A DNA stretch of 64,000 nucleotides from Frankiales bacterium (GTDB lineage: Bacteria; Actinomycetota; Actinomycetes; JAFAQI01). Location: NCBI GenBank assembly GCA_025980325.1, contig JAICXQ010000003.1, positions 18,798 to 82,797 of the forward strand. Direction: 5' to 3'. This document shows positions 33,462-55,858 of the stretch, in pieces; positions within the stretch are counted from its first letter, which is position 1; every line of letters starts with the position of its first letter. The notes beneath the pieces are model-generated. The model was not told the origin of the DNA, ran no database searches, and saw only the letters and a list, made by a program, of their open reading frames with translations. Position numbers and translations under genes: made by a program.

Positions 33462-33518
33462 GCCGCTGGGTTCGCCGCCGGCCGCCAACCTCCTGTCCCG
33501 GCCAAGTTGCCCGGTCGT

Positions 33519-35512: not shown

Positions 35513-35591
35513 GGAGTTCGGACGTAGTTACTGGTGAATGTCTGGTGCAGGAGACATCTAGTCGGGGGTGACGCACGATCGAGGAGTAGCT

Positions 35592-37868: not shown

Positions 37869-39407
37869 TCAGCTCTTCGTGTGATCGGTGTAGGACATCA
37901 ACACCGGCGGCGACGGCGGATAGGGCCCGCAATCGACCACTGCGTAATAGGTAGTGATGGCGAGCCCGCGGTGATCGCTGACCGGCGACGACAGGGTAAG
38001 TCCATGCGGGCTGGCGACGGCTTCTTTGGGCGTCGGAACCGGCAACCATCTCCCGCTCTTGATGTTGTAGCGCACGGCCTCGGCATGATGACAAGACCCG
38101 CCCGGTTGCCCGTAGTCACCTGTGACCCGCATGATTGCGAGGAGGTCGTTGCTGCCCGCCGCGAAAGTGACATCCTCGATCGGCGGGCTCGCCCATGCCT
38201 GGCGAGCTCCATTGACCGTGGGCACTGCCGTGGTTGGAATCGCCGGCAACGTCGTCCAGGTCCGCCCGCCGTTGACCGATAGGTACACGGACGGGTTGGG
38301 AGTGCCGAACGGCGGCTGGGCCCAGGTGACTACACGTTCTGATCCCTGGGCTGTGTACTCGGCGTCGACTCCGGCAAGCATGACGTTCGGCGGCGCAGCG
38401 AACACCTTCGTCCAGGAGGCACCCGCGTTAGCCGATCGCCACAAGCCGGCAGTCGGTGCGCTGCCGCCCGCCAGCGACGCGGTCCATAAGGTGGCCGGGT
38501 GGCGGGGGTCGACGATGAAGTACGGCTGGGATGATGTCCAGGGACTCAGACTCGTCTGATTGTACGAGGGCGGTGCTGGTTCCGGTGTCGCGGTAACGGT
38601 CAGCGGCGACGAGATCTGGGTCCATGACGTGCCGGAGTCATGGGTGACGAAAAACTGAATCGGGTTCGTGACGAGCGATAGCGCGGACAGCACGACCAAC
38701 TGCAGAAGTCGCACCTGTTCGCATTCGAAATATGCGGTGCGCGGATCGCTAGGCGAAACGACCAAGGCGGTGTTCCCACAAGCTGGCGTGCCCTCCGGCG
38801 CACTCGGCGCGTTCGCGCTCGGTACCGGCTGGGGGTCGTCGAATGTCGCGCCGCCGTTCGTGCTGACGAGGAACAACGTCGGAAGCTCGTCCAACGTGAG
38901 CTTATTGGTATCCGTGTCGGTCGCAACGACGTAGACCGTCTCGTGGTTGGGCGAGCGACTCGTCGATTCTGCCGCCACCGAGCTGATGCTGTAGTTCGGA
39001 TCAAGCGGTGCCGCTGCCTGCCCAGCTGTTGAGGAGGGTCCTGGCAAGGTGTCCAGAGACAGGATCATCTGCCACGTGCATCCGGCGTCTTGGGTGCGGA
39101 AAAGCTGCCTGTTGTTCGCATAGAACATGGTCTTGGGACTTGCAGGATCGACTGTGGGACCGACCCCCGGCGACGCATTATTGATGTACGTCTCTTCAGT
39201 CGTGGTCACGAGACTGTCATCAGGTGGTGGCGTGTCGATCGTGGTCCATGGTCCGGCGGATGGTTTACATCGCGCGACCGATCCAGCGCTTGCACCGGTG
39301 ACGACGCCGGAGCCCCCACACAGCGCCGCGATCGTCAACACGGTCAGCGTCCGTCGGTGGCGAAGCTCGGGACGGGGCCACGTGGCCGTCGAATGCGGTC
39401 GCGTCAC
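37869..39407 (-). CDS. Secreted BNR/Asp-box beta-propeller protein (paralog A)
   Basis: Signal peptide; TQDAGCTW, STNGGATF, THDSGTSW, SANAGASW, SVNGGRTW. Confidence 0.85.
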   Translation of the reverse strand: MTRPHSTATWPRPELRHRRTLTVLTIAALCGGSGVVTGASAGSVARCKPSAGPWTTIDTPPPDDSLVTTTEETYINNASPGVGPTVDPASPKTMFYANNRQLFRTQDAGCTWQMILSLDTLPGPSSTAGQAAAPLDPNYSISSVAAESTSRSPNHETVYVVATDTDTNKLTLDELPTLFLVSTNGGATFDDPQPVPSANAPSAPEGTPACGNTALVVSPSDPRTAYFECEQVRLLQLVVLSALSLVTNPIQFFVTHDSGTSWTQISSPLTVTATPEPAPPSYNQTSLSPWTSSQPYFIVDPRHPATLWTASLAGGSAPTAGLWRSANAGASWTKVFAAPPNVMLAGVDAEYTAQGSERVVTWAQPPFGTPNPSVYLSVNGGRTWTTLPAIPTTAVPTVNGARQAWASPPIEDVTFAAGSNDLLAIMRVTGDYGQPGGSCHHAEAVRYNIKSGRWLPVPTPKEAVASPHGLTLSSPVSDHRGLAITTYYAVVDCGPYPPSPPVLMSYTDHTKS

Positions 39408-39422
39408 GGGACCTCCCGTTCG

Positions 39423-41003
39423 CTAGCTTCGGGTGTGGTCGGTGTACGACAGGAGCACCGGCTGGTTGTTCGAGCCGCAACTACCGTTCCCGCCGTTCGC
39501 GTAGTACGTCGTGGTGGCGAGACCACGATGGTCGCTGGCCGGCCAGGCAAGGCTGATTCCGTGCGGATCGGCGATGGCCTCTTTCGGCGTGGGGACAGGC
39601 GACCATCTCTTGCTCTTGACGGTGTAGTGCACCGCCTCGGCGTGCGTACACGGAGCCCCAGGATTGCCGTAGTCGCCGCCGGCTTGCAGGATGGCCAGAA
39701 TGTCGTTCGTCGCCGCGGCGAACGTGACCGCCTCGAACGCCGTCCAACTCTGCAGTGCGCCGTTCACCTTGGGTATCGCGGTCAACGGGATCGCCGGCAA
39801 GGCAGCCCAGCTCCGGCCGTTGAGGGAGAGGTACACCTGCGGCTTGCTGTTGCCCTTGACCGATGGACCCCAGGTGACGATTCGTTCCACGCCGGAAGGG
39901 GTGTACTCCGCGTCCACTCCGGCAAGGTGGGTGTCGGCCGGTGCGAACACCTTCGTCCAGGTCGCGCCGCTGTCGGTCGAGCGCCACAGAACGCCGGTCG
40001 CATACTGGCCCAGCTGACCGCTGGCCGCCCCGGTCGTCGATGCGCCGACGGCGAGATTCGTGGTCCACAACGTGTTGGGATGGCGCGGATCGACGATGAA
40101 ATCGGGTTGGGACGGCGGCTGGTTGCCGGCGAGCAGGAAGCCGTCACCGCTCTGCACAGGTTGGGTTGCCAGGACTCCCAGCGCTGCCGAGACCTGGGTC
40201 CACGATTGACCCGCATCATGCGTGACGAACAGTGGAGACGCGTTGGGGAACAGCGCAAAGGCGATGGCCGTGTAGAAGCCCAGGCTCAGCCACCACAGAC
40301 GGGTCTGCTCGCACTGCATGTACACGGTCTTCGGATCGCTCGGCGCAACCTCGAGGGTGGTGTTCTCGCAGGCCGGCACGCCTTCGGGAGCTTCCGGTGC
40401 GTTCGCGCTCGGCAGTGGTTGCGGGGCATGAAATGTCGCACCGCCGTCCGTGCTCACGAGGAACAGCGTCGGTAGCTCGTCGAGCGTTTCCTGATTCGCC
40501 TGGGTCTCGGTCGCGGTGACGTACACCGTCGCGTGGTTGGCCGTCCGGCTCGTCGAAGCGATCGCCAACGACGTGATGCTGTAGAGCTGATCCGAGGACG
40601 CAACGACCTCGGTCGGGGACGACGACGTCCCCGGCTGGCTGTCGAGCGAGAACGCGAGTTGCCACGTGCAACCCCCGTCGAGCGTACGGAACAGCTGCCG
40701 CGGCGTGGCGTAGAACATGTCCTTCGGGCTTGCCGGATCGACGGCCAGCCCGACACCGGGGACAGGGCTCGGCTGCAGCTCGCCCTGCGAGTCGTTCTGC
40801 TCGGTCGTGTTGATCAGGTTGGTACCCGGCGGAGTGCTCGTTGTCGTCCACGGCCCCGGCGAGACATGACAACGGGCCGGCGCAGCCTGCGCACCGCCGA
40901 CCACGCCGGCACCTGCGCAGAGGACGGCGACGGTGGCGAGCATGGAGACGCGAGGCCGGCGAAGGCTGGCCGTCCAGCCCGTGCTCGATGGCTGTGGTGT
41001 CAC
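39423..41003 (-). CDS. Secreted BNR/Asp-box beta-propeller protein (paralog B, tandem duplicate of A)
   Basis: TLDGGCTW, STDGGATF, THDAGQSW, STDSGATW; colinear with 37869-39407. Confidence 0.85.
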   Translation of the reverse strand: MTPQPSSTGWTASLRRPRVSMLATVAVLCAGAGVVGGAQAAPARCHVSPGPWTTTSTPPGTNLINTTEQNDSQGELQPSPVPGVGLAVDPASPKDMFYATPRQLFRTLDGGCTWQLAFSLDSQPGTSSSPTEVVASSDQLYSITSLAIASTSRTANHATVYVTATETQANQETLDELPTLFLVSTDGGATFHAPQPLPSANAPEAPEGVPACENTTLEVAPSDPKTVYMQCEQTRLWWLSLGFYTAIAFALFPNASPLFVTHDAGQSWTQVSAALGVLATQPVQSGDGFLLAGNQPPSQPDFIVDPRHPNTLWTTNLAVGASTTGAASGQLGQYATGVLWRSTDSGATWTKVFAPADTHLAGVDAEYTPSGVERIVTWGPSVKGNSKPQVYLSLNGRSWAALPAIPLTAIPKVNGALQSWTAFEAVTFAAATNDILAILQAGGDYGNPGAPCTHAEAVHYTVKSKRWSPVPTPKEAIADPHGISLAWPASDHRGLATTTYYANGGNGSCGSNNQPVLLSYTDHTRS

Positions 41004-41029
41004 GGGAACCTCCTCACGAACCGACGCTC

Positions 41030-41097
41030 ACGCTAGGTCTGGATCAACGACGGCGACAGCGATTGGCGGGCGGCTGTCCAGCGACTGTCCAGCCGCC
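41030..41097 (-). promoter_or_regulatory. 11-bp phased heptamer array (site C) with TAGCGT -10; also folds as a hairpin
   Basis: Minus strand CTGGACA/CTGGACA/CCCGCCA/CTGTCGC starting at 41092/41081/41070/41059; TAGCGT at 41035-41030. Confidence 0.6.
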
Positions 41098-41107
41098 GCC
41101 GCGCCCG

Positions 41108-41701
41108 TCACCCACTCCATTGGTTGATGCACGATTGCAGCGACTCGCGATAGGCGTCGCTGGTGTACGTCGCCCCCGAAACCGTTTGAATATCAGCGTT
41201 TTCGAGCCGCAGCGCCTCCTTGCGCAGTTGCGGGCCGGCGTAGCCGTTGATCTGGTCGTTGGTCGAGTTTCCGTTCGGCAGCTGGAGGTTCACGACGTCG
41301 GCCCAGTGAGTGCCCTGGATCTTGATGGCGACCTGTACCGGGCCGAAGCTGCCGGCCTGGAACGTTTGGCACGTGTAGGTCTGTGCCGGCCCCGCCGCCG
41401 CCTTCGTCTGGTGCGGATCGGCTTTCGCGGCCGGCCCTCCCCCACCAGTGGTAATCGTGACCGTGCGCGTCACGGTGACGGATCGCGGCGGTGGCGCACC
41501 GGCCGGCCGGGCAGGGCGAGCGGACGCGAGAACGCGAGCGGACGCAGGTCCGTCGGGAGTCGTGACGGATCGCATCGCGACCGTGGTCGAGGGCGACGCG
41601 TGCGTCGGGGCCGCGGGCGGGGTGCGGTAGCGCAGGGTCAACGTGAGTCCGACCGCAGTCAGACCGAGTACGACGCCGGTCTTGATGGCGGGCTTCATCA
41701 T
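41108..41701 (-). CDS. Extracytoplasmic FMN-binding (flavinylated) protein
   Basis: FGPVQV, VSGATYTS flavinylation motif (SGAT at 41168-41179); ATGA overlap. Confidence 0.9.
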   Translation of the reverse strand: MMKPAIKTGVVLGLTAVGLTLTLRYRTPPAAPTHASPSTTVAMRSVTTPDGPASARVLASARPARPAGAPPPRSVTVTRTVTITTGGGGPAAKADPHQTKAAAGPAQTYTCQTFQAGSFGPVQVAIKIQGTHWADVVNLQLPNGNSTNDQINGYAGPQLRKEALRLENADIQTVSGATYTSDAYRESLQSCINQWSG

Positions 41702-43113
41702 GCGAGCGCGAACCCTTCCGTGTGGATCCGGCCGATAGGCAATCCGGCGGCACGCAGTCCGCGGTTGACGCGCTCCGTCATCCCGGGCGGGCCGCAGACA
41801 TACGCGTCGCAGCAGCCCGGTTCGGTGATGAGATCGCGAAGCATCGCCGGGCTGAGCGGGTCGTCGTCGTCACCGGTGCCGCGGTGCCCGGTGACCACCA
41901 GCAGCCGGAACCGGTCGGTGCGTTGCAGGCGCACGAGTTCGTCGCCGAAGTTGACCTGACCGGCGTCACTGACGCGGTAGACCAACGTGACCGCGTCGGT
42001 TCCGCTCGCGATGACGTGCTCCGCGATGGCGAGCAGCGGCGCGACCCCGGAACCGCCGCCGATGAGCAGCACTTCCCGGCCGCGACGCAGCCGCCCGCTC
42101 AGTGCGCCGTACGGCCCTTCCAGCAGAACCCGCGTGCCCGGTTGGCAGTGCGCGAGCCAGTTGGTGTGGTCGCCGACCGGCTTGGCGGTCATCCGCAACC
42201 AGGATCCGTTAGGTGCCGCCGACAGGGAGAACGGATGGGCCTGGGACCAGCCGCCGCGAACGAGGAAGCGCCAGCGGAAGTACTGGCCGCCGACGACGGG
42301 CAGCCGATCCAGTCTGCGGCCGGAGACATAGACGCTTGTCGAACCGTCGGGTTCGCTGGTCACGTCGACGACGCGGAAGCGGTGGCGCGCATATCGCCAG
42401 ATCGGATCGCCGATGCGATAGCGCAGCACAAGGAACGCGACGCTGCCGTGCGCGCTCGCCCACACCACCCGAGCCGGAAGGCTGTGCATGAACAGCGCAC
42501 CGGTCGCGAACTGGTGGGCGAACGCCAGTCCGATGCCGACGTACACGTACAGGTGGACCCACTGCCACGTCTCGTAGCGCAACCGGCGGCGGATCGGGCG
42601 AAGCGACGTCATGACCACGAGCGCGAGCAGCCCGAGCCCGACCGTGCCGGCGAGGACATCCGGATAGGTCAGCACCAGGACGGCGGCCTCGTGCACCACG
42701 GAGGTGTGCACCGCCAGCGCATCGCCGATGGTGATGGTCACGGTATGGATGAGAACCAGCCACAAGATGTAGCCGCCGAGCCACCGATGCGCGGCCGCCA
42801 GCCAATCGGTGCCGATGCGATGCTCCAGCGCCGGGACGCGCGCCATCAGCGTGACCTCGACGAGGATCAGGATCGCCGAGAGCATCCCGGCCGACCGGCC
42901 GAGCTCGACCAGCACGCTTCCGGTGCCGCCGGTCTCCCGCGTCACCGGACTCGACCACCAGTACAACAGCACGGCGAAGCACACGAGACCCGCCGACGCG
43001 ACGACGAGCCATGCCGTGGCGCGCCTGGTGAGCACCAGCCGTCGCATCGGCTCGACCGACGGCAGCGCCCGGTCGAGGACCGGCGCTTCGGTCGGGAGCA
43101 CCGCCGACGACAT
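41698..43113 (-). CDS. Ferric reductase-like TM domain fused to FAD/NAD(P)-binding oxidoreductase
   Basis: Four heme-type His (AAHRW, LIHT, WVHLY, FAHQ), HPFSLS, GPYG, GGSGVAP, YVCGP. Confidence 0.92.
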   Translation of the reverse strand: MSSAVLPTEAPVLDRALPSVEPMRRLVLTRRATAWLVVASAGLVCFAVLLYWWSSPVTRETGGTGSVLVELGRSAGMLSAILILVEVTLMARVPALEHRIGTDWLAAAHRWLGGYILWLVLIHTVTITIGDALAVHTSVVHEAAVLVLTYPDVLAGTVGLGLLALVVMTSLRPIRRRLRYETWQWVHLYVYVGIGLAFAHQFATGALFMHSLPARVVWASAHGSVAFLVLRYRIGDPIWRYARHRFRVVDVTSEPDGSTSVYVSGRRLDRLPVVGGQYFRWRFLVRGGWSQAHPFSLSAAPNGSWLRMTAKPVGDHTNWLAHCQPGTRVLLEGPYGALSGRLRRGREVLLIGGGSGVAPLLAIAEHVIASGTDAVTLVYRVSDAGQVNFGDELVRLQRTDRFRLLVVTGHRGTGDDDDPLSPAMLRDLITEPGCCDAYVCGPPGMTERVNRGLRAAGLPIGRIHTEGFALA

Positions 43114-43132
43114 CTTCGCCTCCTCGCTGCCG

Positions 43133-45076
43133 TTACTCGTGGTTCGCGATCAGGTAGACCGGGCCCGCGTACGAAACCATCTGCTCCGTCTCGCCGGATG
43201 CGTCGTCGATGGTCGCGACCACTGCGTTCTCGACCACGCTGCGGCACTGGACGACGGTGTAGACGAGCCCGGCCGCCTGATCCAGTGCGGGCGCGACCGG
43301 ATTGAAGTTCCAGTCGCGTACGTCGTACTTCGCGCCGGCCACGCCGACCGGGCTCGATCCGACCCGTTGCCACGAAGGCGCGCCGGGCGGCAGCCGGTAG
43401 GACCTGATCGACGCGGTCGTGATGCCCGGCGCCGGATCGACGCCGAGGCTCAAGCTCACCCCGTCCGGCAGGAACGACAACCACAGCGGTTGGATCTGGT
43501 TGTAGACGCCGTCCGTCGTCACTTCCTGTGCCTGCGACGACTCCTCGCCGACGGGCAGGTAGACCTCGCGCAAGGTGGTCGGCGACGGCAACGTCGTCCA
43601 GTGCGTTCCGTTGTCGGTCGAGCGCAGCACCACGTAGACGAAGCCGTTCGTCTGCGGGTCGAGGTAGTGCTCGACGACCGCGGCCGCGAAGCCCGAGCCG
43701 TGATCGGCGACCGCGTAGTCGTCGATGTAGGTCATCATCGGATAGCCGACGCCGGTGTCCTCCGTCGGTGCGGCCAGCCCGGTCCAGCTCTTCCCGTAGT
43801 CACCGGACACGTAGAGCGTGCCGTCGGACTCGAACCGCCCGTTCTGGGTGTCGGCGCCGTCCACGCCGTTCGCCCGCGGCGGCGTCGTACCCGGCGGCGT
43901 CTCCACACCGAGCCCGTAGATCCGCCCTGGCCGGCTCGGGTCGACTCGCAACTGGAACAGGTAGTCCTCGGCAGTGCCGACCGCGTACAGCGCCGGCATC
44001 GCCCAGTGCGGACCGGGGCGGATCGGCACGGCGGCGAGTTGCCAGGTCGAGCCGCCGTCACGGCTCACGAACAACCGCATCCGGCCCGAGCTCGCGCTGG
44101 TTCCCGGCGCTGCGTCGGCGGCCGTCTCGAGATACACGACGTGGGGATCGGTCGGTGCGACGGCGAGCAGTTGCGGGTACCCGCTCCCCGCCGGCAGGGC
44201 CTGCATGGCGCTCGTCACTTGCATGCCACCCGCCGACACGGGTTGGCCGGCCAGCGGAACTGAGGCCGACCACGTCGTGCCGCCGTCGGCGCTCGCCGCC
44301 AGCACCACATGCCCGCCGTACGTTCCGTACGCCGTCGACCACCACGGCGGCGCGATGGTCGCGTAGACCTGGTCGCCGGCTGCGGCAATCGCGGTGACGG
44401 CATATCCGGGTGGCACCGGGATCGCACCGTCGGTGACCGACGCGCCCGCGGGATGCGCGGTCGGATCGAGCGACAGCACCGGAGCCCACGAACACCCGCC
44501 GTCCGACGTGCGCAGCACCTTCGTGCCGTCCGACGCGAGCAGCCGTCCGGGCCGCCCACCGGGAACGACGAACGACGTGGACGCAACAGCGGCGCCGCCA
44601 CCCACACCTGCCGGCGGCACGCCCACCACCTGCTGACCGCTGTTGACCGCCGCGCTTGCGGTGTCCCACACCGAAGACGACGCATCCGGCATCCCGACGA
44701 CGGCAAGCCGGCCGGTGACCCGCACGCCGGGGCATGGGCTGCGGGTGAGCACGTTTCCGGTCGCGACCGGCAGCTGCGCCGGTCCCTGTGCGCCGTACGG
44801 CGTCGTTGGCGGCGCCTCGGTCCGGCGCACCAGCGTCACCACCCGGACCTGCGCACCGGGCGGGGCCGGCGCGCCGTCCGCGGCGCCGGAAGGCTGCCGC
44901 CTCGGCAGGGCCGCGCCGGCGTGACCGGCGGCCAGCGACACCGGTCGTTGGGGCAGCAACAGCGTCAGAGCGATCAGCGCCGCGGTCGTCGCACTCGCGA
45001 CGACGCTCGGCCGCTTGGCGATCACCCCGGCGTGCAGCCGCCAACCGCTCGCCCGTCCGGTCGACAAGGCGAGCAT
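43133..45076 (-). CDS. Secreted BNR/Asp-box beta-propeller protein (paralog C)
   Basis: TSDGGCSW, SADGGTTW, SRDGGSTW, SGDYGKSW, STDNGTHW; TGATG overlap. Confidence 0.8.
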   Translation of the reverse strand: MLALSTGRASGWRLHAGVIAKRPSVVASATTAALIALTLLLPQRPVSLAAGHAGAALPRRQPSGAADGAPAPPGAQVRVVTLVRRTEAPPTTPYGAQGPAQLPVATGNVLTRSPCPGVRVTGRLAVVGMPDASSSVWDTASAAVNSGQQVVGVPPAGVGGGAAVASTSFVVPGGRPGRLLASDGTKVLRTSDGGCSWAPVLSLDPTAHPAGASVTDGAIPVPPGYAVTAIAAAGDQVYATIAPPWWSTAYGTYGGHVVLAASADGGTTWSASVPLAGQPVSAGGMQVTSAMQALPAGSGYPQLLAVAPTDPHVVYLETAADAAPGTSASSGRMRLFVSRDGGSTWQLAAVPIRPGPHWAMPALYAVGTAEDYLFQLRVDPSRPGRIYGLGVETPPGTTPPRANGVDGADTQNGRFESDGTLYVSGDYGKSWTGLAAPTEDTGVGYPMMTYIDDYAVADHGSGFAAAVVEHYLDPQTNGFVYVVLRSTDNGTHWTTLPSPTTLREVYLPVGEESSQAQEVTTDGVYNQIQPLWLSFLPDGVSLSLGVDPAPGITTASIRSYRLPPGAPSWQRVGSSPVGVAGAKYDVRDWNFNPVAPALDQAAGLVYTVVQCRSVVENAVVATIDDASGETEQMVSYAGPVYLIANHE

Positions 45077-49274: not shown

Positions 49275-49280
49275 CAGGCA

Positions 49281-50828
49281 CTAGCCCGCGTAGGCCCGGA
49301 CGAGATCGAACTCCCCGGTGCCGCCGCACTGCGCCACGAGCCCCGCGCTCCGTTCGACCGGGCACGGGTCCGTGCTGACCTGCGTCGGCTGGTCGGCGAT
49401 CGAGAGGTACACATGGCGGCCGGCGGGATCGACGGCGGTCGCGACCGGCCACACCGAACCGAGCGAGCCGACACTGGTCGGGTCCCGGACGTCGTAGCGC
49501 GCCACCCACGCTTGCTTGCCGGCCGAGGTGAAGGCGACGACCACCGGATAACCGGCGTCGGCCGCGATCGGGCCGATGAGCCCGGCGACATAGAGCATGG
49601 TGCCGCGGGCGTTCACCGCGCCGGTTGTCGCCAATGCGGAATAGCTCCCGGTGGCGGAATAGCCGGCGGGGGCGTAGGTGGACAGCCACGTGCTGTGGCC
49701 GGTGCGAGTGTCGAGCGCCGTGGCGGCGAGCCCGCCGCTGCCCGACCCGACCAGGAACAACCGGTCGCCGTGCGGGCTGACCGTCCAGGCCACCGGCGTG
49801 ACCGCGCCGTTGCGAGCCACCCAGCGGGTCTGTCCCCGGCTCGTCGAATAGGCGACGACGAGCGGCTGCGTCACCGGGCTGGTCGAGGTGCCGAACGTCG
49901 CGGTGCCGGCCACGAACACCTGGTCGTTGCGCGGGCTGATGGCGATGCCGGCGGGCTGATGATCCGAGCCCAGATGTGTGATCGCCCGCCAGTTCTGCCG
50001 GCCCGTACGAGCGTCGTAGCGAATCACGGCCTGGTCGTAGACGTGCACACCGGTCGTCTCGGCATGCTCGCTCGTTCCGGCGACGTATACGGCGCGGCCG
50101 TCGGGCGACAGCGACAGGCCGACGGGCGAGTTCTGGCCGCCCGCGAGGCCGCCGTACCGGGAGAGCCACAGCTGGCGTCCGTTGCGCAACGAGTACGCGA
50201 TCGTGATCCATTCGATGTACGGCCGCTGGAAGCCGGCGCTGTACTGGCTGTTGCCGGTGACGATGACCTCCTGGCGCTGCGCGTCGATGGTCATGGCCAC
50301 CGGCACGTTGGTCTCGCCACCCAGCCGGTAGATGGCGGACCAGACCGCCCGGCCGTTCGACGTCGAGTACGCCGTCGTCAACCAATAGACCAGCACCTTG
50401 GCGTTGAGGTTCGGCTGGTAGTTGACCGTGCCGGTCACGAGGACGAGCGACTGGTCCGGCGTCAGTGCGAGCGACGTCGCTGCGGTCGTCAGCGAGGTCG
50501 GTGCGTGAGCCAACCAGATGGTGCCGCCGTTCGAGGTGCTCAGTGCCGCGACGGTCACATGCGGCTGGCTCTGGCCGACATAGCTCGTGGTCGCGACATA
50601 GATCCGGTCGCCACGGCGATCGACGACCGTGCCGGCCGGAACGTCGCTGACCGGCGAGCCGTCCGGACTGCGGTCGTTGAACGAGCGCGACCACTGTTCG
50701 CACCGGTCGTTGAACCCCGACACTTGGTTCACGCAGACGGCCAGCGGCGCGCCGTAGCCCGTCGGCGCGAACGGCAGCAGGATCCCGGCGACAACCAACG
50801 CCGCCGGTAACCGGGAATGCGTGAACAT
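49281..50828 (-). CDS. Secreted PQQ-like beta-propeller protein
   Basis: Repeats AYST.NG..VW, AYSL.NG.QLW, YDARTG.QNW, SPDG.AVYVAG; Cys pairs at both termini. Confidence 0.85.
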   Translation of the reverse strand: MFTHSRLPAALVVAGILLPFAPTGYGAPLAVCVNQVSGFNDRCEQWSRSFNDRSPDGSPVSDVPAGTVVDRRGDRIYVATTSYVGQSQPHVTVAALSTSNGGTIWLAHAPTSLTTAATSLALTPDQSLVLVTGTVNYQPNLNAKVLVYWLTTAYSTSNGRAVWSAIYRLGGETNVPVAMTIDAQRQEVIVTGNSQYSAGFQRPYIEWITIAYSLRNGRQLWLSRYGGLAGGQNSPVGLSLSPDGRAVYVAGTSEHAETTGVHVYDQAVIRYDARTGRQNWRAITHLGSDHQPAGIAISPRNDQVFVAGTATFGTSTSPVTQPLVVAYSTSRGQTRWVARNGAVTPVAWTVSPHGDRLFLVGSGSGGLAATALDTRTGHSTWLSTYAPAGYSATGSYSALATTGAVNARGTMLYVAGLIGPIAADAGYPVVVAFTSAGKQAWVARYDVRDPTSVGSLGSVWPVATAVDPAGRHVYLSIADQPTQVSTDPCPVERSAGLVAQCGGTGEFDLVRAYAG

Positions 50829-50847
50829 CCGATGACTCCGTCCTGCG

Positions 50848-53121
50848 CTACACGGCAGCCAGGCTGGCGTGGTTGCGCTGAGCGTTCAGCGCGACCTCGA
50901 AGTCGTTCATGGTGATGGTGATCCCGCTCTTCGGCGTACGACCGTTGCGGGTGACTCGGTTGAGCGCCTTCCGCCCGGCACTGTCGCGCAGCCGCTTGAG
51001 ATCGGCGCCCGACATCCCTTCGGTGCCGGGGATGAGTGAACGCAGGTTGACCGTCTTCGCGAGGTTCACCTCCCGGCACAGCAGTTGCAGCAACTGCAAC
51101 CGCGCCGGCGCGTCCGGCAGACCTACCTCGACGGGCTCGAGCCGACGGCCGACGACGGCTTCGTCGATGGTGTCGATCCGGTTGGTGGCGCCGACGAGCA
51201 GCACACCGTCACCGCCCTTGAGCCCGTCCAGTTCGCGAAGGAACTGGGAGAGCACGCGCTCCTCCCATTTCGCGTTCGAGTCGCCCGACCGCCGGCGCAG
51301 GAGTGCGTCGATCTCGTCGATGAAGATGATCGAGGGCCGGTTGGCTCGTGCTTGGGTGAACAATTTGGCGACCCGCTGCTCGGACTCTCCGGCCCACTTG
51401 CTGAGCAGGTCGGCCGCACTCATCTCGTAGAAGCTGGCCTGGATCTGACTGGCCATGGCTTTCGCGATCGTCGTCTTGCCCGTACCCGGAGGGCCGAAGA
51501 GCAAGACGCCGGCCGGCGGCTGGATCCCGACCTGGCGGGCGAGTTCGGGACGGGTGAAGATCGTGAGCACTTCCATGACCCGTTCCCGGGTCTCCTCGGC
51601 GAGTACGACGTCGGGCCAGCCGACGGTGTGCTCGAGGCTGAGCCGGTGCTGGCCGCCCCGATCCGCGATGGCCTGCGCGAGCACCTCCTGCGTGATCGGT
51701 GCTCCGTCCCGCAGCGCCGCCTGGGCAGCGAGCGAGACGACCGTCTCCAGCGCCGCGGCGTTGTAGCCGTGCGTGACGCGGGACAGCGCCGCGAGATCCA
51801 GGGTGGCCCAGTCGACGGCGTCGCCGCGGCGCCGCAGGTGCACGTCGAGGACGGTGACCCGGTCGTCCGGATCCGGCAGCGGGACGTGAATCTTGGCGTC
51901 GAACCGCCCTTCGCGCAGTGCCGGATCGAGCCGGTCCAGATCGTTGGTGCCGGCGGCGATGATCAGGCCCGGGACGTTGCGGTACTCCTCGAGGCAGACC
52001 ATCAACTGGGTGACGACCTCTCGGTGATCGGCCGACGGCTGGTCACCGCGATCGGAGGCGATGGTGTCGATCTCGTCGAGGTAGAGGACGCACGGAGCGT
52101 TTCGCTTGCCGAGCTCGAAGAGCTGGCGAAGGTTGGTCGCGGCTTCGTGGATGTACGCGCTCGCGATGCTCGCCGGCGAGAACCGCAGGTAGCGCAACCC
52201 GTACTCGCCGGCGAGGGCCCGGCTCAGCAGGTTCTTGCCGGTGCCGGGTGGGCCGTAGAACAGGATGCCGTTGTGCACGACCTGGTAGCGCGCGGCTTCG
52301 TCCGGACGTTCGAGGATGGCGCCGACCGATTCGCGCAACGCGCGCTTGACCTTCTCCAGCCCGCCGACATCGGCGAAGGTCTCGCACTCGGCGGGCGGCA
52401 GTACGCGTAGTCGGTTGTCCCGTCCCACGGTTGAGTTGTTGTCCAGTCCGGGCGCGACGCGGATCTGGCTGCCCAACAGGTCGGCCGCGAGCCGGTATCC
52501 GGCGGTCTGCCGTTGACGCAGCCGGGCGGCCGCCTCTGCCGCGGCGAGCGGCCCGTCGTCGGGCTTGACGTGGTCGAGCTGGACCTTGGCCTGACGGCAC
52601 TCGGCGACGTTCTCCTCGAGCCGGGCCAACCCCTCGGTTCCGACCGCACACGTGGCCATCGCACGGTTCAACGCGACGATGAAGCGGCGGCCGGAGATGG
52701 TCAGCTCGTGCTCGGCCGCCTCGACCGCCGTACCCGCCGCGCCGAAGTCGAGCCGGTCGACCGCGTCCCGAGCCTCGGCGAGCCGGGCCAACGCGACCTG
52801 TGCGTGCTTGAGTTCGCCCTCGGCTTTGCCCAGCAGATCCGGGATTCTGGCCGCGACGAGCCGCTCGAAACCCTCGGCCATGTCCTCGACCGACTGGCGG
52901 AGCACGGCGAGCACTTGGACCGCCTCGTCGCGCGCCGCGTGTTCCTCGGCCGACCAGGTTGCCTCCAGCGCGGCTTTCGCCTGGCGTCGGCGTAACCGCG
53001 GAATCGACGCGAGCTCCGCGTCCTTCTCCACGCGGTGCAGGACGTCCCGCTGAGTCAGTCGGGCGGCGTGCCGACGGTAGTGCAGGACGTCGGGATTGCG
53101 CGCAGCGGACGAGCGTGGCAC
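50848..53121 (-). CDS. Double-AAA (CDC48/p97-like) ATPase with N-terminal helical/coiled-coil region
   Basis: D1 GPPGTGKN, LYLDEID, LDPALREGRFD; D2 GPPGTGKT, SKWAGESE, IFIDEID, GATNR. Confidence 0.92.
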   Translation of the reverse strand: MPRSSAARNPDVLHYRRHAARLTQRDVLHRVEKDAELASIPRLRRRQAKAALEATWSAEEHAARDEAVQVLAVLRQSVEDMAEGFERLVAARIPDLLGKAEGELKHAQVALARLAEARDAVDRLDFGAAGTAVEAAEHELTISGRRFIVALNRAMATCAVGTEGLARLEENVAECRQAKVQLDHVKPDDGPLAAAEAAARLRQRQTAGYRLAADLLGSQIRVAPGLDNNSTVGRDNRLRVLPPAECETFADVGGLEKVKRALRESVGAILERPDEAARYQVVHNGILFYGPPGTGKNLLSRALAGEYGLRYLRFSPASIASAYIHEAATNLRQLFELGKRNAPCVLYLDEIDTIASDRGDQPSADHREVVTQLMVCLEEYRNVPGLIIAAGTNDLDRLDPALREGRFDAKIHVPLPDPDDRVTVLDVHLRRRGDAVDWATLDLAALSRVTHGYNAAALETVVSLAAQAALRDGAPITQEVLAQAIADRGGQHRLSLEHTVGWPDVVLAEETRERVMEVLTIFTRPELARQVGIQPPAGVLLFGPPGTGKTTIAKAMASQIQASFYEMSAADLLSKWAGESEQRVAKLFTQARANRPSIIFIDEIDALLRRRSGDSNAKWEERVLSQFLRELDGLKGGDGVLLVGATNRIDTIDEAVVGRRLEPVEVGLPDAPARLQLLQLLCREVNLAKTVNLRSLIPGTEGMSGADLKRLRDSAGRKALNRVTRNGRTPKSGITITMNDFEVALNAQRNHASLAAV

Positions 53122-55320
53122 TTAGACCTCCTTCACACCGACGAGGACCTTGCCCCCGCGGTGACCATTGCGCGAACGCGTGAGCACGCTGCCGAACATC
53201 TCCATCTCGGGCTGGACGTCGGTCAGCAGATCTTCGAGGGCTTGGCCCTCCAGCGTTTCCTGTTCCTCCAGCCGTTCGGCGAGCGTGTCCAACGTGGACC
53301 GGTGGGTGAGGAGCAGCTGCCCGGCCTCCCGCTGTGCGTCCTCGATGACCCGGCGGATCTCGGCGTCGACTTCCTGATGGGTCAGCCCGGACACGGAGCC
53401 GAGCTGTACGTCCGCCTCGAGGAACTCGTCGACATCGGCGGCGAGCAGGCGGACCTTGCCGAGCTTGTCGCTCATGCCGTAGCGGCCGACCATGTCGCGC
53501 GCGAGCATCGTCGCCTCGACCAGGTCCTGCTCCGCGCCGGTGGACGGCTCGCCGAAGACGATCTCCTCGGCTGCCACTCCGGCGAGGTGGATCGCGAGTC
53601 GATGTTGCAGCTGGGTGCGGGTGAGGACGGCGACCTCTTCGTCGGATGCGAACGTCGCTTTGCCGAGGTTGCGGCCGCCGGTCAGGATGGACACGCGGTG
53701 CACGTCTTCGAACCGGCCCGTGGCCGCGGCGACGACGACGTGACCGCTTTCGTGGTAGGCGATCCGCTTGCGCTCCTCGGTCGTCAGGCTCCGGGTGCGC
53801 CGTACCGTGCCGTTGAGCGCGCGCTGGACGCCCTCCTCCATGTCGACGGCCTCGATCTCGTCCTTTCCTTGCCGGATCGCGAGCAACGCGGATTCGTTGA
53901 TGACGTTCGCGAGATCGGCACCGGAGAATCCGGGAGTACGGCGCGCGAGACCGAGGAAGTCGACGTCCGGGGCCAGCGGCTTGCCGCGCGAGTGCAACTC
54001 GAGGATCTTGGCGCGCCCGGCGAGGTCCGGTCGCTCGACCGTGATGTGGCGGTCGAACCGACCGGGACGCAGCAACGCCGGGTCGAGGATGTCAGGCCGG
54101 TTCGTCGCGCCCATGACGACGATGCCGCTGGACACGTCGAAGCCGTCCATCTCGACGAGGATCTGGTTGAGCGTCTGCTCGCGCTCCTCGCTCCCCCCGC
54201 CCGCGCCGCCCTGGGCTCGCTTGCGGCCGGCGGCGTCGAGCTCGTCGATGAAGACCACCGCCGGTGCGACGGCGCGCACGCGACGGAACAGATCGCGAAC
54301 GCGAGCAGCGCCGACGCCGACCAGCGATTCGACGAACTCCGCGCCGGCGACCGAGAAGAACGGAACCCCGACCTCGCCGGCCACTGCCTTCGCGAGCAGC
54401 GTCTTGCCGCAGCCGGGCGGTCCGATGAGCAGGACGCCTCGCGGGGGCTGCGCGCCGAGCTGCTTGTAACGACCCGGATCGGCCAGGTAGTCGCGGACCT
54501 CCTTGAGCTCCTCGACTGCCTCGTCCGCACCCGCGACCTGGGCGAAGGTCACCGGAGTCTTCTTACGACGGCTGAACCGGCCCTTGCCGATCGAGCCGAA
54601 CAGTTCGACCTCGCCGATGCCGGACGCCGATCCGCGATTCGACGTGAACAGCAACACGAAGACGTTCGCGAGCATCAGCAGCGGCAGCACCAGTGTCGCG
54701 ATGATGCGCATCTCGCTCTTGCGCGTCTGTGTGTCGATGACGACGCGAGCGCCGCCGTCGGTGAGCAGCTGCATGAACAGCGGAGTCGCCGAGTCGCTCT
54801 TCGGATAGGCGACCCAGAACTTGGCAGTTCCCGTGACAACCGTTGCGGTCCTCGTCGGGTCGGGTGCCGGGTGCTGCTGTGGTTGGTTGGCCGACAACCG
54901 CATCGAATCGGCGCAGGTGGGCGAAGTCGCGCGCGGCGAGACGAACGGCGCCGTGGTGGTCGGCTGGTAGCCCTGGCTCGGTGTGGCGGTCGCGGGCGTC
55001 GTACAGGTGTATTCCCCGACGATCTGTGCGTCCTCGTCGCGGAATGTCGCCGACACGACCTGATGCTGGACGGCCAGGGCGCTCAACTGATCGACGGTGA
55101 TCTGGCGGCCCACCGGATGTGGTGCGAGATAGCCGAGGCTCAGGAAGAACAGCACGGCCAGGCCGGCGAGGGTGCCCATGAGCACGTACGTCTGCCGGCT
55201 TCGGGTCTTGCGCTTCGCGACCCGCGCGCGCCGCCATTGACGTACGGCGATCAACGTTTCGCGCTGGAGCCAGCGACCCGCGCGCACCCCGCTGCCACTC
55301 ACACGACTGAGCAGGTTCAC
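53122..55320 (-). CDS. ftsH: ATP-dependent zinc metalloprotease FtsH paralog
   Basis: Two TM, GPPGCGKT, FIDELD, EEREQTLNQILVEMDGF, ATNRPDILDPALLRPGRFDR, HESGH, TGAEQD. Confidence 0.93.
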   Translation of the reverse strand: MNLLSRVSGSGVRAGRWLQRETLIAVRQWRRARVAKRKTRSRQTYVLMGTLAGLAVLFFLSLGYLAPHPVGRQITVDQLSALAVQHQVVSATFRDEDAQIVGEYTCTTPATATPSQGYQPTTTAPFVSPRATSPTCADSMRLSANQPQQHPAPDPTRTATVVTGTAKFWVAYPKSDSATPLFMQLLTDGGARVVIDTQTRKSEMRIIATLVLPLLMLANVFVLLFTSNRGSASGIGEVELFGSIGKGRFSRRKKTPVTFAQVAGADEAVEELKEVRDYLADPGRYKQLGAQPPRGVLLIGPPGCGKTLLAKAVAGEVGVPFFSVAGAEFVESLVGVGAARVRDLFRRVRAVAPAVVFIDELDAAGRKRAQGGAGGGSEEREQTLNQILVEMDGFDVSSGIVVMGATNRPDILDPALLRPGRFDRHITVERPDLAGRAKILELHSRGKPLAPDVDFLGLARRTPGFSGADLANVINESALLAIRQGKDEIEAVDMEEGVQRALNGTVRRTRSLTTEERKRIAYHESGHVVVAAATGRFEDVHRVSILTGGRNLGKATFASDEEVAVLTRTQLQHRLAIHLAGVAAEEIVFGEPSTGAEQDLVEATMLARDMVGRYGMSDKLGKVRLLAADVDEFLEADVQLGSVSGLTHQEVDAEIRRVIEDAQREAGQLLLTHRSTLDTLAERLEEQETLEGQALEDLLTDVQPEMEMFGSVLTRSRNGHRGGKVLVGVKEV

Positions 55321-55540: not shown

Positions 55541-55858
55541 ATGCTCACGCCTGAGACGTGGGCGGAGATCCGCCGGCTACATCTTTCGGAGGGAGCGGGA
55601 ATACGGGAGATCGCGCGCCGCCTGGAGATATCGCGCGACACGGTGCGGCGAGCGCTGCGTTCGTCGGAGCCGCCGCGCTATCTGCGCCCTCGCCGACCGT
55701 CGCCATTGGACCTGCTCGAGCCGATGATCCGCGACGTGCTCGCCGCCCACCCCGAATATTCGTCGACACAAGTGTCCCGACGGGTCGGCTGGCAAGGATC
55801 GGGATCCGCGATGCGCGCGCGGATACGGCGAATCAAGTCAGCCGAACAGGACAGCTGA
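55541..55858 (+). mobile_element. IS21-family IstA N-terminal HTH only (105 aa), remnant or domesticated
   Basis: WAEIRRLH..EG..IREIARRL.ISRDTVRRAL.S..PP.Y.RP...S.LD; no DDE domain, no istB. Confidence 0.75.

What the first reader, a model, noticed from the sequence alone, without database searches (positions are those of the whole stretch)
37869..55320. Candidate undescribed system: FtsH paralog + double-AAA ATPase co-encoded with six secreted beta-propellers and a transmembrane redox module
Seen: ten same-strand genes, mostly with overlapping or <=20-nt junctions (TAAGTG at 53124-53119, ATGA at 46566 and 41701, TGATG at 45076); one 104-nt gap. Order: ftsH, AAA-AAA, PQQ-propeller, anchored propeller/Ig protein, two Asp-box propellers, ferric reductase, FMN-binding protein, two more Asp-box propellers. 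Established: housekeeping actinobacterial ftsH normally lies near hpt/folE, which are absent here. I know of no described pathway with this combination. Inference: a dedicated machine to export, mature, shed or quality-control a disulfide-bonded surface layer or adhesin set, with two ATP-driven unfoldases and an electron conduit.
Basis: partly seen in the sequence, partly recalled or inferred. Interest (0 to 1): 0.9.

Follow-up and report, generated by a model that had tools for sequence, protein, structure and literature searches.

The report
FtsH-paralog cassette with anchored surface propellers
A soil actinomycete carries several copies of a gene cassette that pairs an extra membrane protease (FtsH) and a Cdc48-like motor with cell-surface propeller proteins that share one special membrane-anchor tail: a conserved partnership I found described nowhere, and whose purpose is still unknown.

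Summary
The ten same-strand genes and their tight junctions are real. The ftsH is a paralog. The canonical ftsH-folE pair lies on contig C97.

The linkage is conserved:
- FtsH and the tandem-AAA gene are adjacent in 17 of 17 loci examined. The loci include 3 copies in this 68%-complete MAG and 7 in another MAG.
- Every cassette with enough flank encodes a ~900-aa secreted tandem-propeller protein ending in a shared C-terminal module: Pro-rich, QAQ-rich, a conserved juxtamembrane helix, a TM helix and a basic tail.

That module tracks the FtsH paralog clade. In the order, 19 of 27 non-training module hits lie beside such an FtsH, and 0 of 19 genomes without that FtsH class have the module. The minimal unit is a two-gene FtsH + anchored-propeller operon, seen in 6 of 6 loci fetched.

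The ferric-reductase/FMN pair is not conserved in the cassette. With the nearby ApbE gene it matches the published 'MsrQ-like' flavinylation module.

Function is inferred only. I think the FtsH paralog, helped by the Cdc48-like ATPase, docks on and processes or turns over the anchored surface protein. Three literature searches found no description.

The parts
55870..57429 (-). g0: STAND NTPase (MalT/Apaf-like NOD) with an N-terminal helical, probably HTH, domain. Proposed cassette regulator.
   Evidence: AAA_16 31.6 bits (cut-off 32.6). AF2 model pLDDT 90. Foldseek: MalT 8bob_C TMt 0.71, STAND 6mfv, Apaf-1. Weak HTH_23/Sigma70_r4_2 hits at residues 84-117. Homologs lie in 11 of 17 cassette loci. 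About 120 database clusters at 38-64% identity, plus the window's own protein.
53122..55320 (-). g1: FtsH paralog ('class P'). Two TM helices, a divergent ectodomain, AAA and M41 domains. The longest ORF reaches 55641.
   Evidence: HEXXH, Walker A/B and SRH intact, pore loop FVESLVGVG. Falls in the paralog clade, apart from the folE-linked clade.
50848..53121 (-). g2: Cdc48-like tandem AAA ATPase (D1+D2) with a family-specific N-domain (residues 1-245). Its start codon abuts the ftsH stop codon.
   Evidence: 120 listed clusters, 119 at 55-100% identity over at least 97% of the query.
49281..50828 (-). g3: secreted beta-propeller (SBBP/NHL-like).
   Evidence: Homologs directly follow the AAA2 gene in 7 loci.
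46563..49274 (-). g4: anchored surface protein. Signal sequence, BNR propeller, second beta domain, Ig-like domain, Pro-rich/QAQ-rich linker, C-terminal module.
   Evidence: AF2 model pLDDT 74. Foldseek: BT4673/BT4663 sensor domains, GH74, SorCS2..
46566..46850 (-). C-terminal module of g4: QAQ-rich stretch, conserved motif (VVVPQRQxQPQLALA-like, modelled helix 831-847), Arg cluster, TM helix, basic tail.
45076..46566 (-). g5: secreted BNR/Asp-box propeller.
43133..45079 (-). g6: secreted BNR/Asp-box propeller.
41698..43113 (-). g7: MsrQ/NOX-like ferric-reductase membrane domain fused to FAD/NAD-binding domains. Accessory specific to this locus.
41108..41701 (-). g8: membrane-anchored FMN_bind protein containing an SGAT flavinylation-type motif.
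39423..41003 (-). g9: secreted BNR/Asp-box propeller, tandem duplicate of g10 (56% identity).
37869..39407 (-). g10: secreted BNR/Asp-box propeller.
57777..58517 (-). ApbE flavin transferase gene. Probable partner of g7/g8, not of the FtsH cassette.
   Evidence: PF02424 E 3e-47..

Best explanation
The window holds one copy of a recurrent, lineage-restricted actinomycete cassette.

The core is a paralogous, catalytically intact FtsH ('class P') and a ~900-aa type-I surface protein. That protein has tandem beta-propellers plus an Ig-like domain. It ends in a conserved module: a juxtamembrane helix, a TM helix and a basic cytoplasmic tail.

The proposed mechanism is inferred, not shown:
1. The module is the handle by which the FtsH paralog recognises this protein. 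The conserved extracytoplasmic helix would dock on the FtsH ectodomain or TM region.
2. FtsH engages the cytoplasmic tail and extracts and degrades the anchor. This removes or sheds the folded ectodomain, so the cell controls which surface propeller set it displays.
3. In the elaborated version seen here, a translationally coupled Cdc48-like tandem-AAA ATPase adds cytosolic pulling power.
4. A cassette-specific STAND/HTH protein switches the operon on.
5. Further secreted propellers (g3, g5, g6, g9, g10) are co-displayed partners of the anchored protein.
6. The MsrQ-like reductase, the FMN-binding protein and ApbE form a separate, known redox module that only this copy has recruited.
For: Shown by tool results:
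- Paralog status. The canonical ftsH sits next to folE on C97 and forms a separate clade with SH-aLRT support 100. All AAA2-linked FtsH fall in one 23-row clade with support 97.
- Recurrence. There are 3 copies in G000, 7 in G328, and 1 each in G002, G056 and G240. One more is in MAG locus L013, and 3 are on metagenome contigs.
- FtsH-AAA2 adjacency in 17 of 17 loci, often with zero or overlapping junctions.
- The module protein is present in 13 of 17 loci. Three of the other four are cut short by contig ends, and L013 was not resolved by my gene caller.
- Module HMM against the six-frame translation of G000 gave 7 hits at E<0.01. Five lie beside the five non-canonical FtsH genes (C53, C103, C34, C72, C10). 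None lies beside the canonical (C97) or the divergent (C9) FtsH.
- Across the order (38 genomes), 19 of 27 non-training module hits lie within 8 kb of a class-P FtsH on the same contig. All 13 of 13 hits outside the window's genus do. All 16 genomes with the module have a class-P FtsH, and 0 of 19 genomes without one have the module.
- Six of six AAA2-less loci fetched show FtsH and the module protein as direct neighbours, with gaps of 7-134 nt.
- In 1.84 billion representatives, 126 proteins match the module. In 126 of 126 the match ends within 25 residues of the C-terminus. 91 of 126 are 800-1000 aa long.
- HEXXH, Walker A and Walker B are intact in 17 of 17 cassette FtsH.
- 33 of 33 class-P FtsH carry pore loop FVE[SA]LVGVG, against FVEMFVGVG in 3 of 3 canonical FtsH.
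- Within the genome the cytoplasmic parts stay similar (FtsH 64-66%, AAA2 66-69% identity). STAND is at 45-49%, and the anchored ectodomains are at 29% or less, or not alignable.
Against: - There is no experimental or expression evidence.
- The module sits on essentially one homologous protein family: 93 of 94 full-length ectodomains form a single-linkage cluster. It could be that family's own anchor and not a recognition signal.
- Many module proteins are 'orphans' away from any ftsH: 8 of 27 in the order, and 25 of 35 in ten further f21 genomes.
- Some tails are only 7-9 residues. That is shorter than the ~20 residues E. coli FtsH is recalled to need for initiation.
- The most conserved part of the module is extracytoplasmic. 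This fits a stable partner or regulator as well as it fits a substrate.
- Nothing tested bears on the role of AAA2.
- Gene calls come from a home-made codon-usage caller, so start codons are approximate.
- 'Class P' outside six genomes was assigned by M41 bit score (122-176 bits), not by a tree.
Confidence: 0.45

Rival explanations
1. Sensor or regulator complex. The anchored tandem-propeller protein is not a substrate. It is a stable extracytoplasmic partner of the FtsH paralog, as HflK/C are for E. coli FtsH (recalled). Ligand binding outside would gate FtsH/AAA2 proteolysis of a cytoplasmic target. That target might be the STAND/HTH regulator or an inhibitor of it, giving outside-in signalling by regulated proteolysis.
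For: - The g4 ectodomain model resembles the two-propeller + Ig sensor domains of Bacteroides hybrid two-component glycan sensors (BT4673, BT4663; top Foldseek hits, E ~2e-15).
- The conserved part of the module is the extracytoplasmic helix, while the tail varies.
- Each cassette has its own diverged STAND/HTH gene.
- Ectodomains diverge fast, as ligand-specific receptors do.
Against: - Global TM-scores of those fold matches are low (0.18-0.27), so they show shared architecture and not proven homology.
- The minimal two-gene pairs lack a STAND gene in the spans fetched.
- Orphan module proteins outnumber FtsH-P genes in family f21. That fits one enzyme with many clients better than a 1:1 complex.
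Confidence: 0.25
2. Biological-conflict or defence system. This would be a multi-copy, patchily distributed STAND + AAA+ + protease cassette with rapidly diversifying extracellular receptors. It would recognise phages or competitors and trigger a proteolytic response, in the spirit of the NTP-dependent conflict systems of Kaur et al. 2020.
For: - Copy number and patchiness. G328 has 7 copies, while 5 of the 7 species of its genus have none. In the class sample 4 of 401 genomes hold the double-AAA gene, G000 included.
- A STAND NTPase is present.
- Ectodomains diverge fast.
- Kaur et al. describe an 'FtsH ternary system' enriched in actinobacteria (passages read).
Against: - PADLOC gave only generic AAA matches (IetA, TRIP13) and nothing for g0, g3 or g4.
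- The Kaur FtsH system is defined by MoxR + vWA + a protein with an inactive N-terminal FtsH-type AAA domain. Here no MoxR or vWA gene was found in the cassette, and both AAA modules keep Walker A/B.
- No toxin or effector domain was detected.
- The core FtsH + anchored-propeller pair is widespread within two families and looks vertically kept.
Confidence: 0.08
3. One reading: all ten genes form one dedicated machine. The NOX/MsrQ-like reductase and the FMN protein would supply electrons for maturing a disulfide-bonded surface layer.
For: - g7/g8 are embedded between cassette propeller genes with tight junctions (19, -4 and 104 nt).
- The g6|g7 junction is bridged by an independent contig.
- Conserved Cys in g4.
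- Other cassettes carry different oxidative accessories. A lysyl-oxidase-like gene sits next to 4 loci; Pfam was run on one of them.
Against: - No g7 or g8 homolog occurs in the other 16 loci.
- No g7 homolog at E<=1e-30 occurs in the two same-genus genomes.
- PF01794 + PF00175 + FMN_bind + apbE is a stand-alone module reported in 1,797 clusters, mostly actinobacterial, and proposed for iron reduction in a subset.
Confidence: 0.07
4. No functional link: a housekeeping ftsH that happens to lie next to secreted-protein genes.
For: FtsH family membership is certain.
Against: The canonical copy is elsewhere. The neighbourhood is conserved in 17 of 17 AAA2-containing loci and 6 of 6 minimal-pair loci, and it matches the phyletic profile.
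Confidence: 0.02

Closest known systems
Housekeeping FtsH (TIGR01241; E. coli/actinobacterial ftsH next to hpt/folE)
   Same: Two TM helices flanking an ectodomain, an AAA module, and an M41 zinc protease with HEXXH. Scores above the TIGR01241 cut-off.
   Different: - Separate clade, not folE-linked.
- Pore-loop Phe replaced by Leu in 33 of 33.
- The ectodomain gives no Pfam hit.
- Up to 10 such copies per genome.
- Always next to a module-bearing surface protein.
Cdc48/p97/VAT and the actinobacterial Cdc48-like protein Cpa (Ziemski et al. 2018, PMC6017811; passages read)
   Same: Tandem D1-D2 classical AAA modules. The best PDB sequence matches are Cdc48/p97/VAT at ~300 bits.
   Different: - The N-domain (residues 1-245) has no Pfam match, so no Cdc48_N-type domain was detected.
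- TIGR01243 scores 335 bits against a cut-off of 803.
- Much weaker match to Cpa/Msm0858 (5e7p, 174 bits).
- Cpa sits with psd/pssA, whereas this gene always follows an ftsH paralog.
- D1 Walker A reads GKN in 10 of 16.
FtsH ternary conflict system (MoxR + vWA + double FtsH-type AAA) of Kaur et al. 2020 (PMC7159879; passages read)
   Same: An extra FtsH-type tandem-AAA protein in actinobacteria. STAND and beta-propeller themes in neighbouring systems.
   Different: - No MoxR or vWA core here.
- The N-terminal AAA is not degenerate.
- A genuine membrane FtsH with protease is present.
- The propellers are secreted, not cytoplasmic.
- Supplementary tables of that paper could not be seen and might list related loci.
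C-terminal sorting-signal/processing-enzyme pairs (LPXTG-sortase, PEP-CTERM-exosortase, GlyGly-CTERM-rhombosortase; recalled)
   Same: A signature motif, a TM helix and a basic tail at the extreme C-terminus. The dedicated membrane enzyme is encoded nearby. Orphan carriers lie elsewhere in the genome. The phyletic profiles match.
   Different: - The partner is an ATP-dependent FtsH protease.
- The motif lies ~25-35 residues before the TM helix.
- The carriers belong to a single protein family.
- No known CTERM model in NCBIfam matched.
- Processing is not shown.
MsrQ-like flavinylation clusters (Meheust et al. 2021, PMC8238504; passages read)
   Same: g7 has PF01794 with a C-terminal PF00175 domain. 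g8 has FMN_bind with an SGAT motif. apbE is nearby. The module is typical of Actinobacteria.
   Different: Here the pair is embedded among cassette propeller genes, and apbE is separated from it by the cassette.
MalT-type STAND transcription activators (fold match 8bob)
   Same: Nucleotide-binding oligomerisation domain fold.
   Different: Only 519 aa. No C-terminal sensor or LuxR domain. The putative HTH is N-terminal and only weakly detected.
FtsH-HflK/C complex and the chloroplast Ycf2-FtsHi motor (both recalled, not tested)
   Same: FtsH-family rings working with dedicated membrane partners or extra AAA subunits.
   Different: No homology of the partners. FtsH here keeps its protease site.

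Membership tests
FtsH (TIGR01241 / M41 AAA protease) | AAA module plus M41 peptidase with HEXXH, scoring above the curated cut-off | tested here: met
   TIGR01241 637.2 bits against 600. PF01434 E 5e-47. HESGH present.
FtsH (TIGR01241 / M41 AAA protease) | Two N-terminal TM helices flanking an extracytoplasmic domain | tested here: met
   Hydropathy segments at 150-168 and 310-328 of the 839-aa ORF.
Housekeeping ftsH ortholog | Single conserved copy linked to folE, grouping with other genomes' canonical FtsH | tested here: not met
   The folE-linked copy is on C97. The window copy falls in a different clade.
Cdc48/p97/VAT | Tandem D1-D2 AAA modules with Walker A/B | tested here: met
Cdc48/p97/VAT | Cdc48-type N-domain and full-length family score | tested here: not met
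   No Pfam hit for residues 1-245. TIGR01243 334.6 bits against a cut-off of 802.65.
Cpa (actinobacterial Cdc48-like protein) | Closest to Msm0858/Rv0435c; operon with psd and pssA in two of three branches | tested here: not met
   5e7p scores 174 bits against ~300 for Cdc48/p97. None of the window genes scanned is psd or pssA. Operon description.
FtsH ternary conflict system (Kaur et al. 2020) | MoxR AAA + vWA protein + a protein with an inactive N-terminal and an active C-terminal FtsH-type AAA domain | tested here: not met
   No MoxR or vWA family in g0-g10 or the flanks scanned. Both Walker A/B sets are present in 15 of 16 AAA2 proteins, and my pattern missed the D2 Walker B in one. Definition.
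MsrQ-like flavinylation system (for g7, g8, ApbE only) | PF01794 membrane protein (often with PF00175), an FMN_bind protein with an [S/T]GA[S/T] motif, and apbE in the cluster | tested here: met
STAND NTPase | NBD-HD-WHD nucleotide-binding oligomerisation fold with a P-loop | tested here: met
   Model pLDDT 90. Foldseek: MalT, 6mfv, Apaf-1 at probability 1.00. Pfam AAA_16 is 1 bit under its cut-off.
Known C-terminal sorting domains (LPXTG, PEP-CTERM, GlyGly-CTERM and others in NCBIfam) | Match to a curated CTERM/sorting model | tested here: not met
   NCBIfam scan of g4 returned only a weak F510_1955 hit.
Known anti-phage defence systems (PADLOC 2.0) | Specific match of the components to a defence-system model | tested here: not met
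   Only generic AAA hits (IetA, TRIP13) for g1 and g2. A BrxF hit at E 0.0045 for g0. Nothing for g3 or g4.
Proposed FtsH-P/anchored-propeller pair (this report) | The FtsH paralog physically binds or processes the C-terminal module | not testable with these tools
No RNA or protein data.

The most novel reading that the evidence does not exclude
A new kind of bacterial surface-protein handling system. A dedicated FtsH paralog would act as the cognate processing or extraction enzyme for a C-terminal anchor signal, functionally parallel to sortase or exosortase but ATP-driven. In the elaborated cassettes it would team with a Cdc48-like segregase. The result would be an ERAD-like 'pull from the cytoplasmic side' mechanism that sheds or retrieves folded cell-surface propeller proteins in Gram-positive actinomycetes.
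Probability: 0.25. Interest if true: 0.9.

Novelty: new variant of a known kind. Interest (0 to 1): 0.75.

Why it matters
FtsH is usually a single, essential housekeeping protease. Here one lineage has expanded it: at least 7 M41 loci in a 68%-complete MAG, and 12 in a relative. Each extra copy is tied to a specific class of surface protein through a conserved anchor module, and sometimes to a Cdc48-like ATPase and a STAND regulator.

If the functional link is real, three things follow:
- A membrane AAA+ protease would have a genetically defined, dedicated client or partner family.
- A bacterial Cdc48-type ATPase would work with FtsH and not with the proteasome.
- Uncultured soil actinomycetes would have a possible new route for controlling what they display on their surface.

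The two-gene minimal pair is small enough to test by heterologous expression.

Tried and rejected
- PADLOC scan gave only generic AAA similarity, so I rejected membership of a known defence system.
- Rfam gathering scan of the whole window gave 0 matches. ARAGORN found 0 tRNAs. There is no riboswitch or tRNA-linked island signal.
- The genome-contig scan with the full AAA2 alignment was swamped by a generic Cdc48 motif. Of 80 loci kept, only L013 was a full-length relative (57% identity). Five more actinobacterial loci matched at 39-43% over the AAA part only. The rest were mostly archaeal Cdc48.
- The metagenome scan with the N-domain alignment gave 6 loci. I used three (L094, L097, L099). 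I dropped three (L095, L096, L098; 2.5-3.5 kb) as too short to show neighbours.
- Redox-pair history. I looked for g7 in five relatives to see whether the cassette had split an apbE-msrQ cluster. It turned up only in G004 at 45% identity, so the order of events cannot be resolved.
- Expression. No RNA holder was listed for the stretch. The runs laid were DNA contigs only. They cover junctions but say nothing about transcription.
- Vertical descent versus transfer. Cassette FtsH orthologs between G000 and G328 are 71-81% identical, against 73% for the canonical FtsH. Old paralogy with loss and transfer between related lineages both remain possible.
- Labels not taken up. The 'PQQ propeller' label for g3 and 'glycosyl hydrolase' for the BNR proteins (weak F510_1955 hits far under cut-off) were not adopted. 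I also read the 105-aa plus-strand ORF between g0 and g1 as an IS21-type transposase fragment by eye. Pfam supports only a generic HTH, so I do not claim that.
- I did not search for a shared promoter motif upstream of the cassettes.
Paper supplements were closed. The supplementary tables of Kaur et al. 2020 and Meheust et al. 2021 may list related loci, and I could not see them.

Full report
**1. Observation**

The window is G000:C53:18798-82797. G000 is a 2.70-Mb MAG in 129 contigs, 68% complete and 2.5% contaminated, with about 68% GC.

Their family assignments are:
- g1 is an FtsH (TIGR01241 637 bits against a cut-off of 600).
- g2 has two AAA modules.
- g3 is a propeller with only weak NHL/SGL/SBBP hits.
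- g4, g5, g6, g9 and g10 have BNR/Asp-box and Sortilin-Vps10-like hits.
- g7 has Ferric_reduct + FAD/NAD-binding domains.
- g8 has FMN_bind.

A hydropathy scan fits N-terminal export signals on the propeller proteins. It also shows a C-terminal TM helix and basic tail on g4. Short contigs from a soil run bridge five of the junctions, including g6|g7. Only the 'PQQ' label for g3 lacks support.

**2. Paralog, not housekeeping gene**

G000 has M41 peptidase matches at eight places. The best one (C97, 246 bits) lies directly upstream of folE. In a tree of 41 FtsH cores it groups with one copy from each of five relatives, with SH-aLRT support 100. The window FtsH and every other AAA2-linked FtsH fall in a separate 23-row clade with support 97.

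The paralogs keep Walker A/B, the second region of homology and HEXXH in 17 of 17 cases. They share a pore-loop change: FVE[SA]LVGVG in 33 of 33, against FVEMFVGVG in 3 of 3 canonical copies.

**3. The cassette recurs**

tblastn of the ten proteins against G000 found two more FtsH + tandem-AAA pairs, on C103 and C34. Identity is 64-66% for FtsH and 66-69% for AAA2. Each pair is followed by secreted propeller genes.

Other genomes hold it too:
- The same-genus genome G002 has one copy. G001 has none at the threshold used.
- In the class sample, 4 of 401 genomes hold the AAA2 gene.
- One of them, G328, has seven copies. Five of the seven species in its genus have none.

I called genes with a codon-usage model trained on G000 and clustered the proteins of 17 stretches by all-against-all BLASTP. 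The 17 loci are G000 x3, G002, G328 x7, G056, G240, MAG locus L013 and three metagenome contigs.

Results across the 17 loci:
- FtsH and AAA2 are adjacent on one strand in 17 of 17. The order is reversed in the distant locus L099. L013 was judged from tblastn because my caller failed there.
- A homolog of the gene upstream of the window's ftsH (g0) is present in 11 of 17.
- A g3-like propeller directly follows AAA2 in 7.
- A large secreted protein with a C-terminal TM anchor is present in 13. Three of the other four loci end at a contig edge, and L013 was not resolved.
- g7 and g8 have no homolog in any other locus.
- Variable accessories include more BNR propellers, Kelch propellers, a lysyl-oxidase-like protein, a sigma-70-region-2 membrane protein and ABC-2 transporters.

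**4. The shared C-terminal module and its tie to the FtsH paralog**

The anchored proteins of different cassettes are barely alignable in their ectodomains (29% identity or less). All of them nevertheless end alike, in this order:
- a Pro-rich stretch;
- a QAQ-rich stretch;
- a conserved motif resembling VVVPQRQxQPQLALA;
- an Arg cluster;
- a TM helix;
- a basic tail of 7-35 residues.

*Own genome.* An HMM of the last 95 residues was searched against 26,837 six-frame ORF fragments of G000. It gave seven hits at E<0.01. Three were training rows (C53, C103, C34). Four were new (C72, C33, C10, C21). The C72 and C10 hits lie right beside the two remaining non-canonical ftsH genes. So 5 of 5 such FtsH have a module protein next door. 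The canonical and the divergent C9-type FtsH have none.

*Order of G000.* A second alignment (A4, 11 rows) was searched over the 38 genomes of the order and compared with all M41 matches there.
- Of 27 hits outside the training rows, 19 lie within 8 kb of an FtsH scoring 122-176 bits, the class that holds the paralog clade. My rough chance expectation is about 1%.
- All 13 of 13 hits outside the window's genus do so.
- All 16 genomes with the module have such an FtsH.
- None of the 19 genomes lacking that class has the module.
- Three genomes have the class without a detected module.

*Family f21.* 13 of 17 genomes carry the module. In nine of the ten genomes I cross-checked beyond G328, G056 and G124, at least one module gene abuts an FtsH paralog, 10 of 35 hits in all. 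Orphans are common there.

*Five-genome check.* In the earlier five-genome search, 17 of 34 hits were adjacent, 8 of them outside the training rows.

*Minimal pairs.* I fetched six AAA2-less loci. All six show the FtsH paralog and an 850-950-aa module protein as direct neighbours, with gaps of 7-134 nt. The ancestral unit is therefore a two-gene pair. The window holds an elaborated form of it.

*Whole protein library.* Against 1.84 billion protein representatives the module profile finds 126 proteins at E<=0.001. In 126 of 126 the match ends within 25 residues of the C-terminus. 91 are 800-1000 aa long, and 28 are under 500 aa, probably fragments. Of 94 at 800 aa or more, 92 have an Asp-box, and 93 fall in one single-linkage ectodomain family.

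*Class sample.* The module is essentially confined to families f1, f21 and f34. It occurs in 25 of 401 genomes, and three of those are borderline hits in short ORFs.

**5. The parts**

*g0.* The model is confident (pLDDT 90) and matches STAND proteins: MalT 8bob_C at TMt 0.71, 6mfv and Apaf-1. Its first 130 residues are helical. They give weak HTH/Sigma70_r4_2 hits at residues 84-117. Homologs form about 120 clusters of 305-569 aa. Many share their 'longest contig' length with AAA2 clusters, which is a proxy for co-location.

*AAA2.* It is closest to Cdc48/p97/VAT (~300 bits), not to mycobacterial Cpa (174 bits). Its N-domain has no Pfam hit. D1 reads GKN in 10 of 16. Fourteen of 16 end in a similar [ST]-[LFM]-x-x-[VIA] tail.

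*g4.* The model (pLDDT 74) shows a propeller at residues 45-400, a second beta domain at 435-660 and an Ig-like domain at 664-760. A disordered linker follows, with a helix at 831-847 on the conserved motif. The top fold matches are two-propeller + Ig sensor domains of Bacteroides hybrid two-component systems, GH74 enzymes and SorCS2. Global TM-scores are low. Nine Cys columns are invariant in 17 homologs.

*g7, g8 and ApbE.* Together they fit the 'MsrQ-like' flavinylation clusters of Meheust et al. 2021 (passages read).

**6. How it most likely works**

Shown by the data:
- conserved adjacency;
- intact catalytic motifs;
- type-I topology of the anchored protein;
- the phyletic match between the module and the FtsH class.

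Inferred, not shown:
- The module is the element through which the FtsH paralog binds its neighbour. The module's best-conserved part is extracytoplasmic. In the two-gene form, the only other conserved extracytoplasmic element is the FtsH ectodomain.
- I favour a client model (0.45). FtsH, with AAA2 where present, engages the tail and extracts and degrades the anchor, so that the folded ectodomain is removed or shed. The Leu pore loop and the Pro/Gln-rich linker could favour partial processing, which is speculation.
- The main rival (0.25) is a stable sensor or regulator complex that gates proteolysis of a cytoplasmic target.

**7. Comparison with what is known**

- The cassette is not the FtsH ternary system of Kaur et al. 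2020. That system needs MoxR, vWA and a half-inactive double AAA protein.
- AAA2 is not Cpa.
- No PADLOC system matches.
- No curated CTERM sorting model matches.
- Three full-text searches returned no paper describing an FtsH paralog linked to Cdc48-like, STAND or BNR-propeller genes, or to a C-terminal anchor module. Subscription journals and paper supplements were not searchable.

**8. Limits**

- All genomes are MAGs, and several loci end at contig edges.
- Gene starts are approximate.
- 'Class P' beyond six genomes rests on bit scores.
- Related genomes are not independent observations.
- No RNA, protein or interaction data exist.

Noticed in passing
window 55541-55858 (+), in the 549-nt gap between g0 and g1: A 105-aa plus-strand ORF with a helix-turn-helix (HTH_29, HTH_7 and HTH_23 at or just above cut-off). 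By eye it resembles the N-terminus of a transposase, but Pfam supports only a generic HTH.
   Followed up: partly
window 54913-55005 (-), FtsH ectodomain: A Thr/Pro-rich stretch bracketed by two Cys residues in the paralog's ectodomain. The matching region is variable in the 13-sequence FtsH alignment. It might set partner specificity.
   Followed up: no
window 50848-50880 (-) and the AAA2 genes of other loci: 14 of 16 AAA2 proteins end in a similar short tail ([ST]-[LFM]-x-x-[VIA]). 10 of 16 have Asn in place of Thr/Ser in the D1 Walker A (GKN).
   Followed up: partly
G000:C72:3418-9689 (own genome, outside the window): An AAA2-less FtsH paralog is followed by a secreted BNR propeller fused to a vWA-like region (judged by eye from a DxSxS-like motif). 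Next comes a separate 223-aa protein carrying the C-terminal module, then two small Cys-containing secreted paralogs. The anchor module appears split off as its own gene.
   Followed up: partly
G000:C10:30402-37452: A long-branch FtsH paralog is directly followed by a 1,677-aa secreted protein with a weak module hit (E 1.9e-3 and 5e-5 in two searches). This is a much larger carrier than the ~900-aa family.
   Followed up: partly
L111:13273-14181; also the cluster members on C103, L093 and L013: Secreted lysyl-oxidase-like proteins (PF01186 E 2e-14 on the L111 member, the only one scanned) lie beside four cassettes. They hint at oxidative cross-linking of surface proteins.
   Followed up: partly
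G328:C87:21542-39797 (loci L112/L113): Two cassettes are arranged head-to-head with a STAND gene between the two ftsH genes. A third FtsH paralog with a module protein lies 40 kb further along the same contig.
   Followed up: partly
window 31080-33488 (-) and 35568-37832 (+): A GH92 alpha-mannosidase-type gene and a 754-aa IPT/TIG-domain protein flank the distal end of the cassette. A histidine kinase (27494-28924) and a DUF11 surface protein (29122-30051) lie further on.
   Followed up: no
relatives of G000: A further FtsH class scoring 180-212 bits on M41 occurs 14 times in 13 genomes of the order but was not seen in G000, G001 or G002. All genomes also carry a very divergent type at 84-116 bits (C9 in G000).
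   Followed up: no
G000:C118:13613-14131: A second GTP cyclohydrolase I (folE) copy lies away from any ftsH.
   Followed up: no
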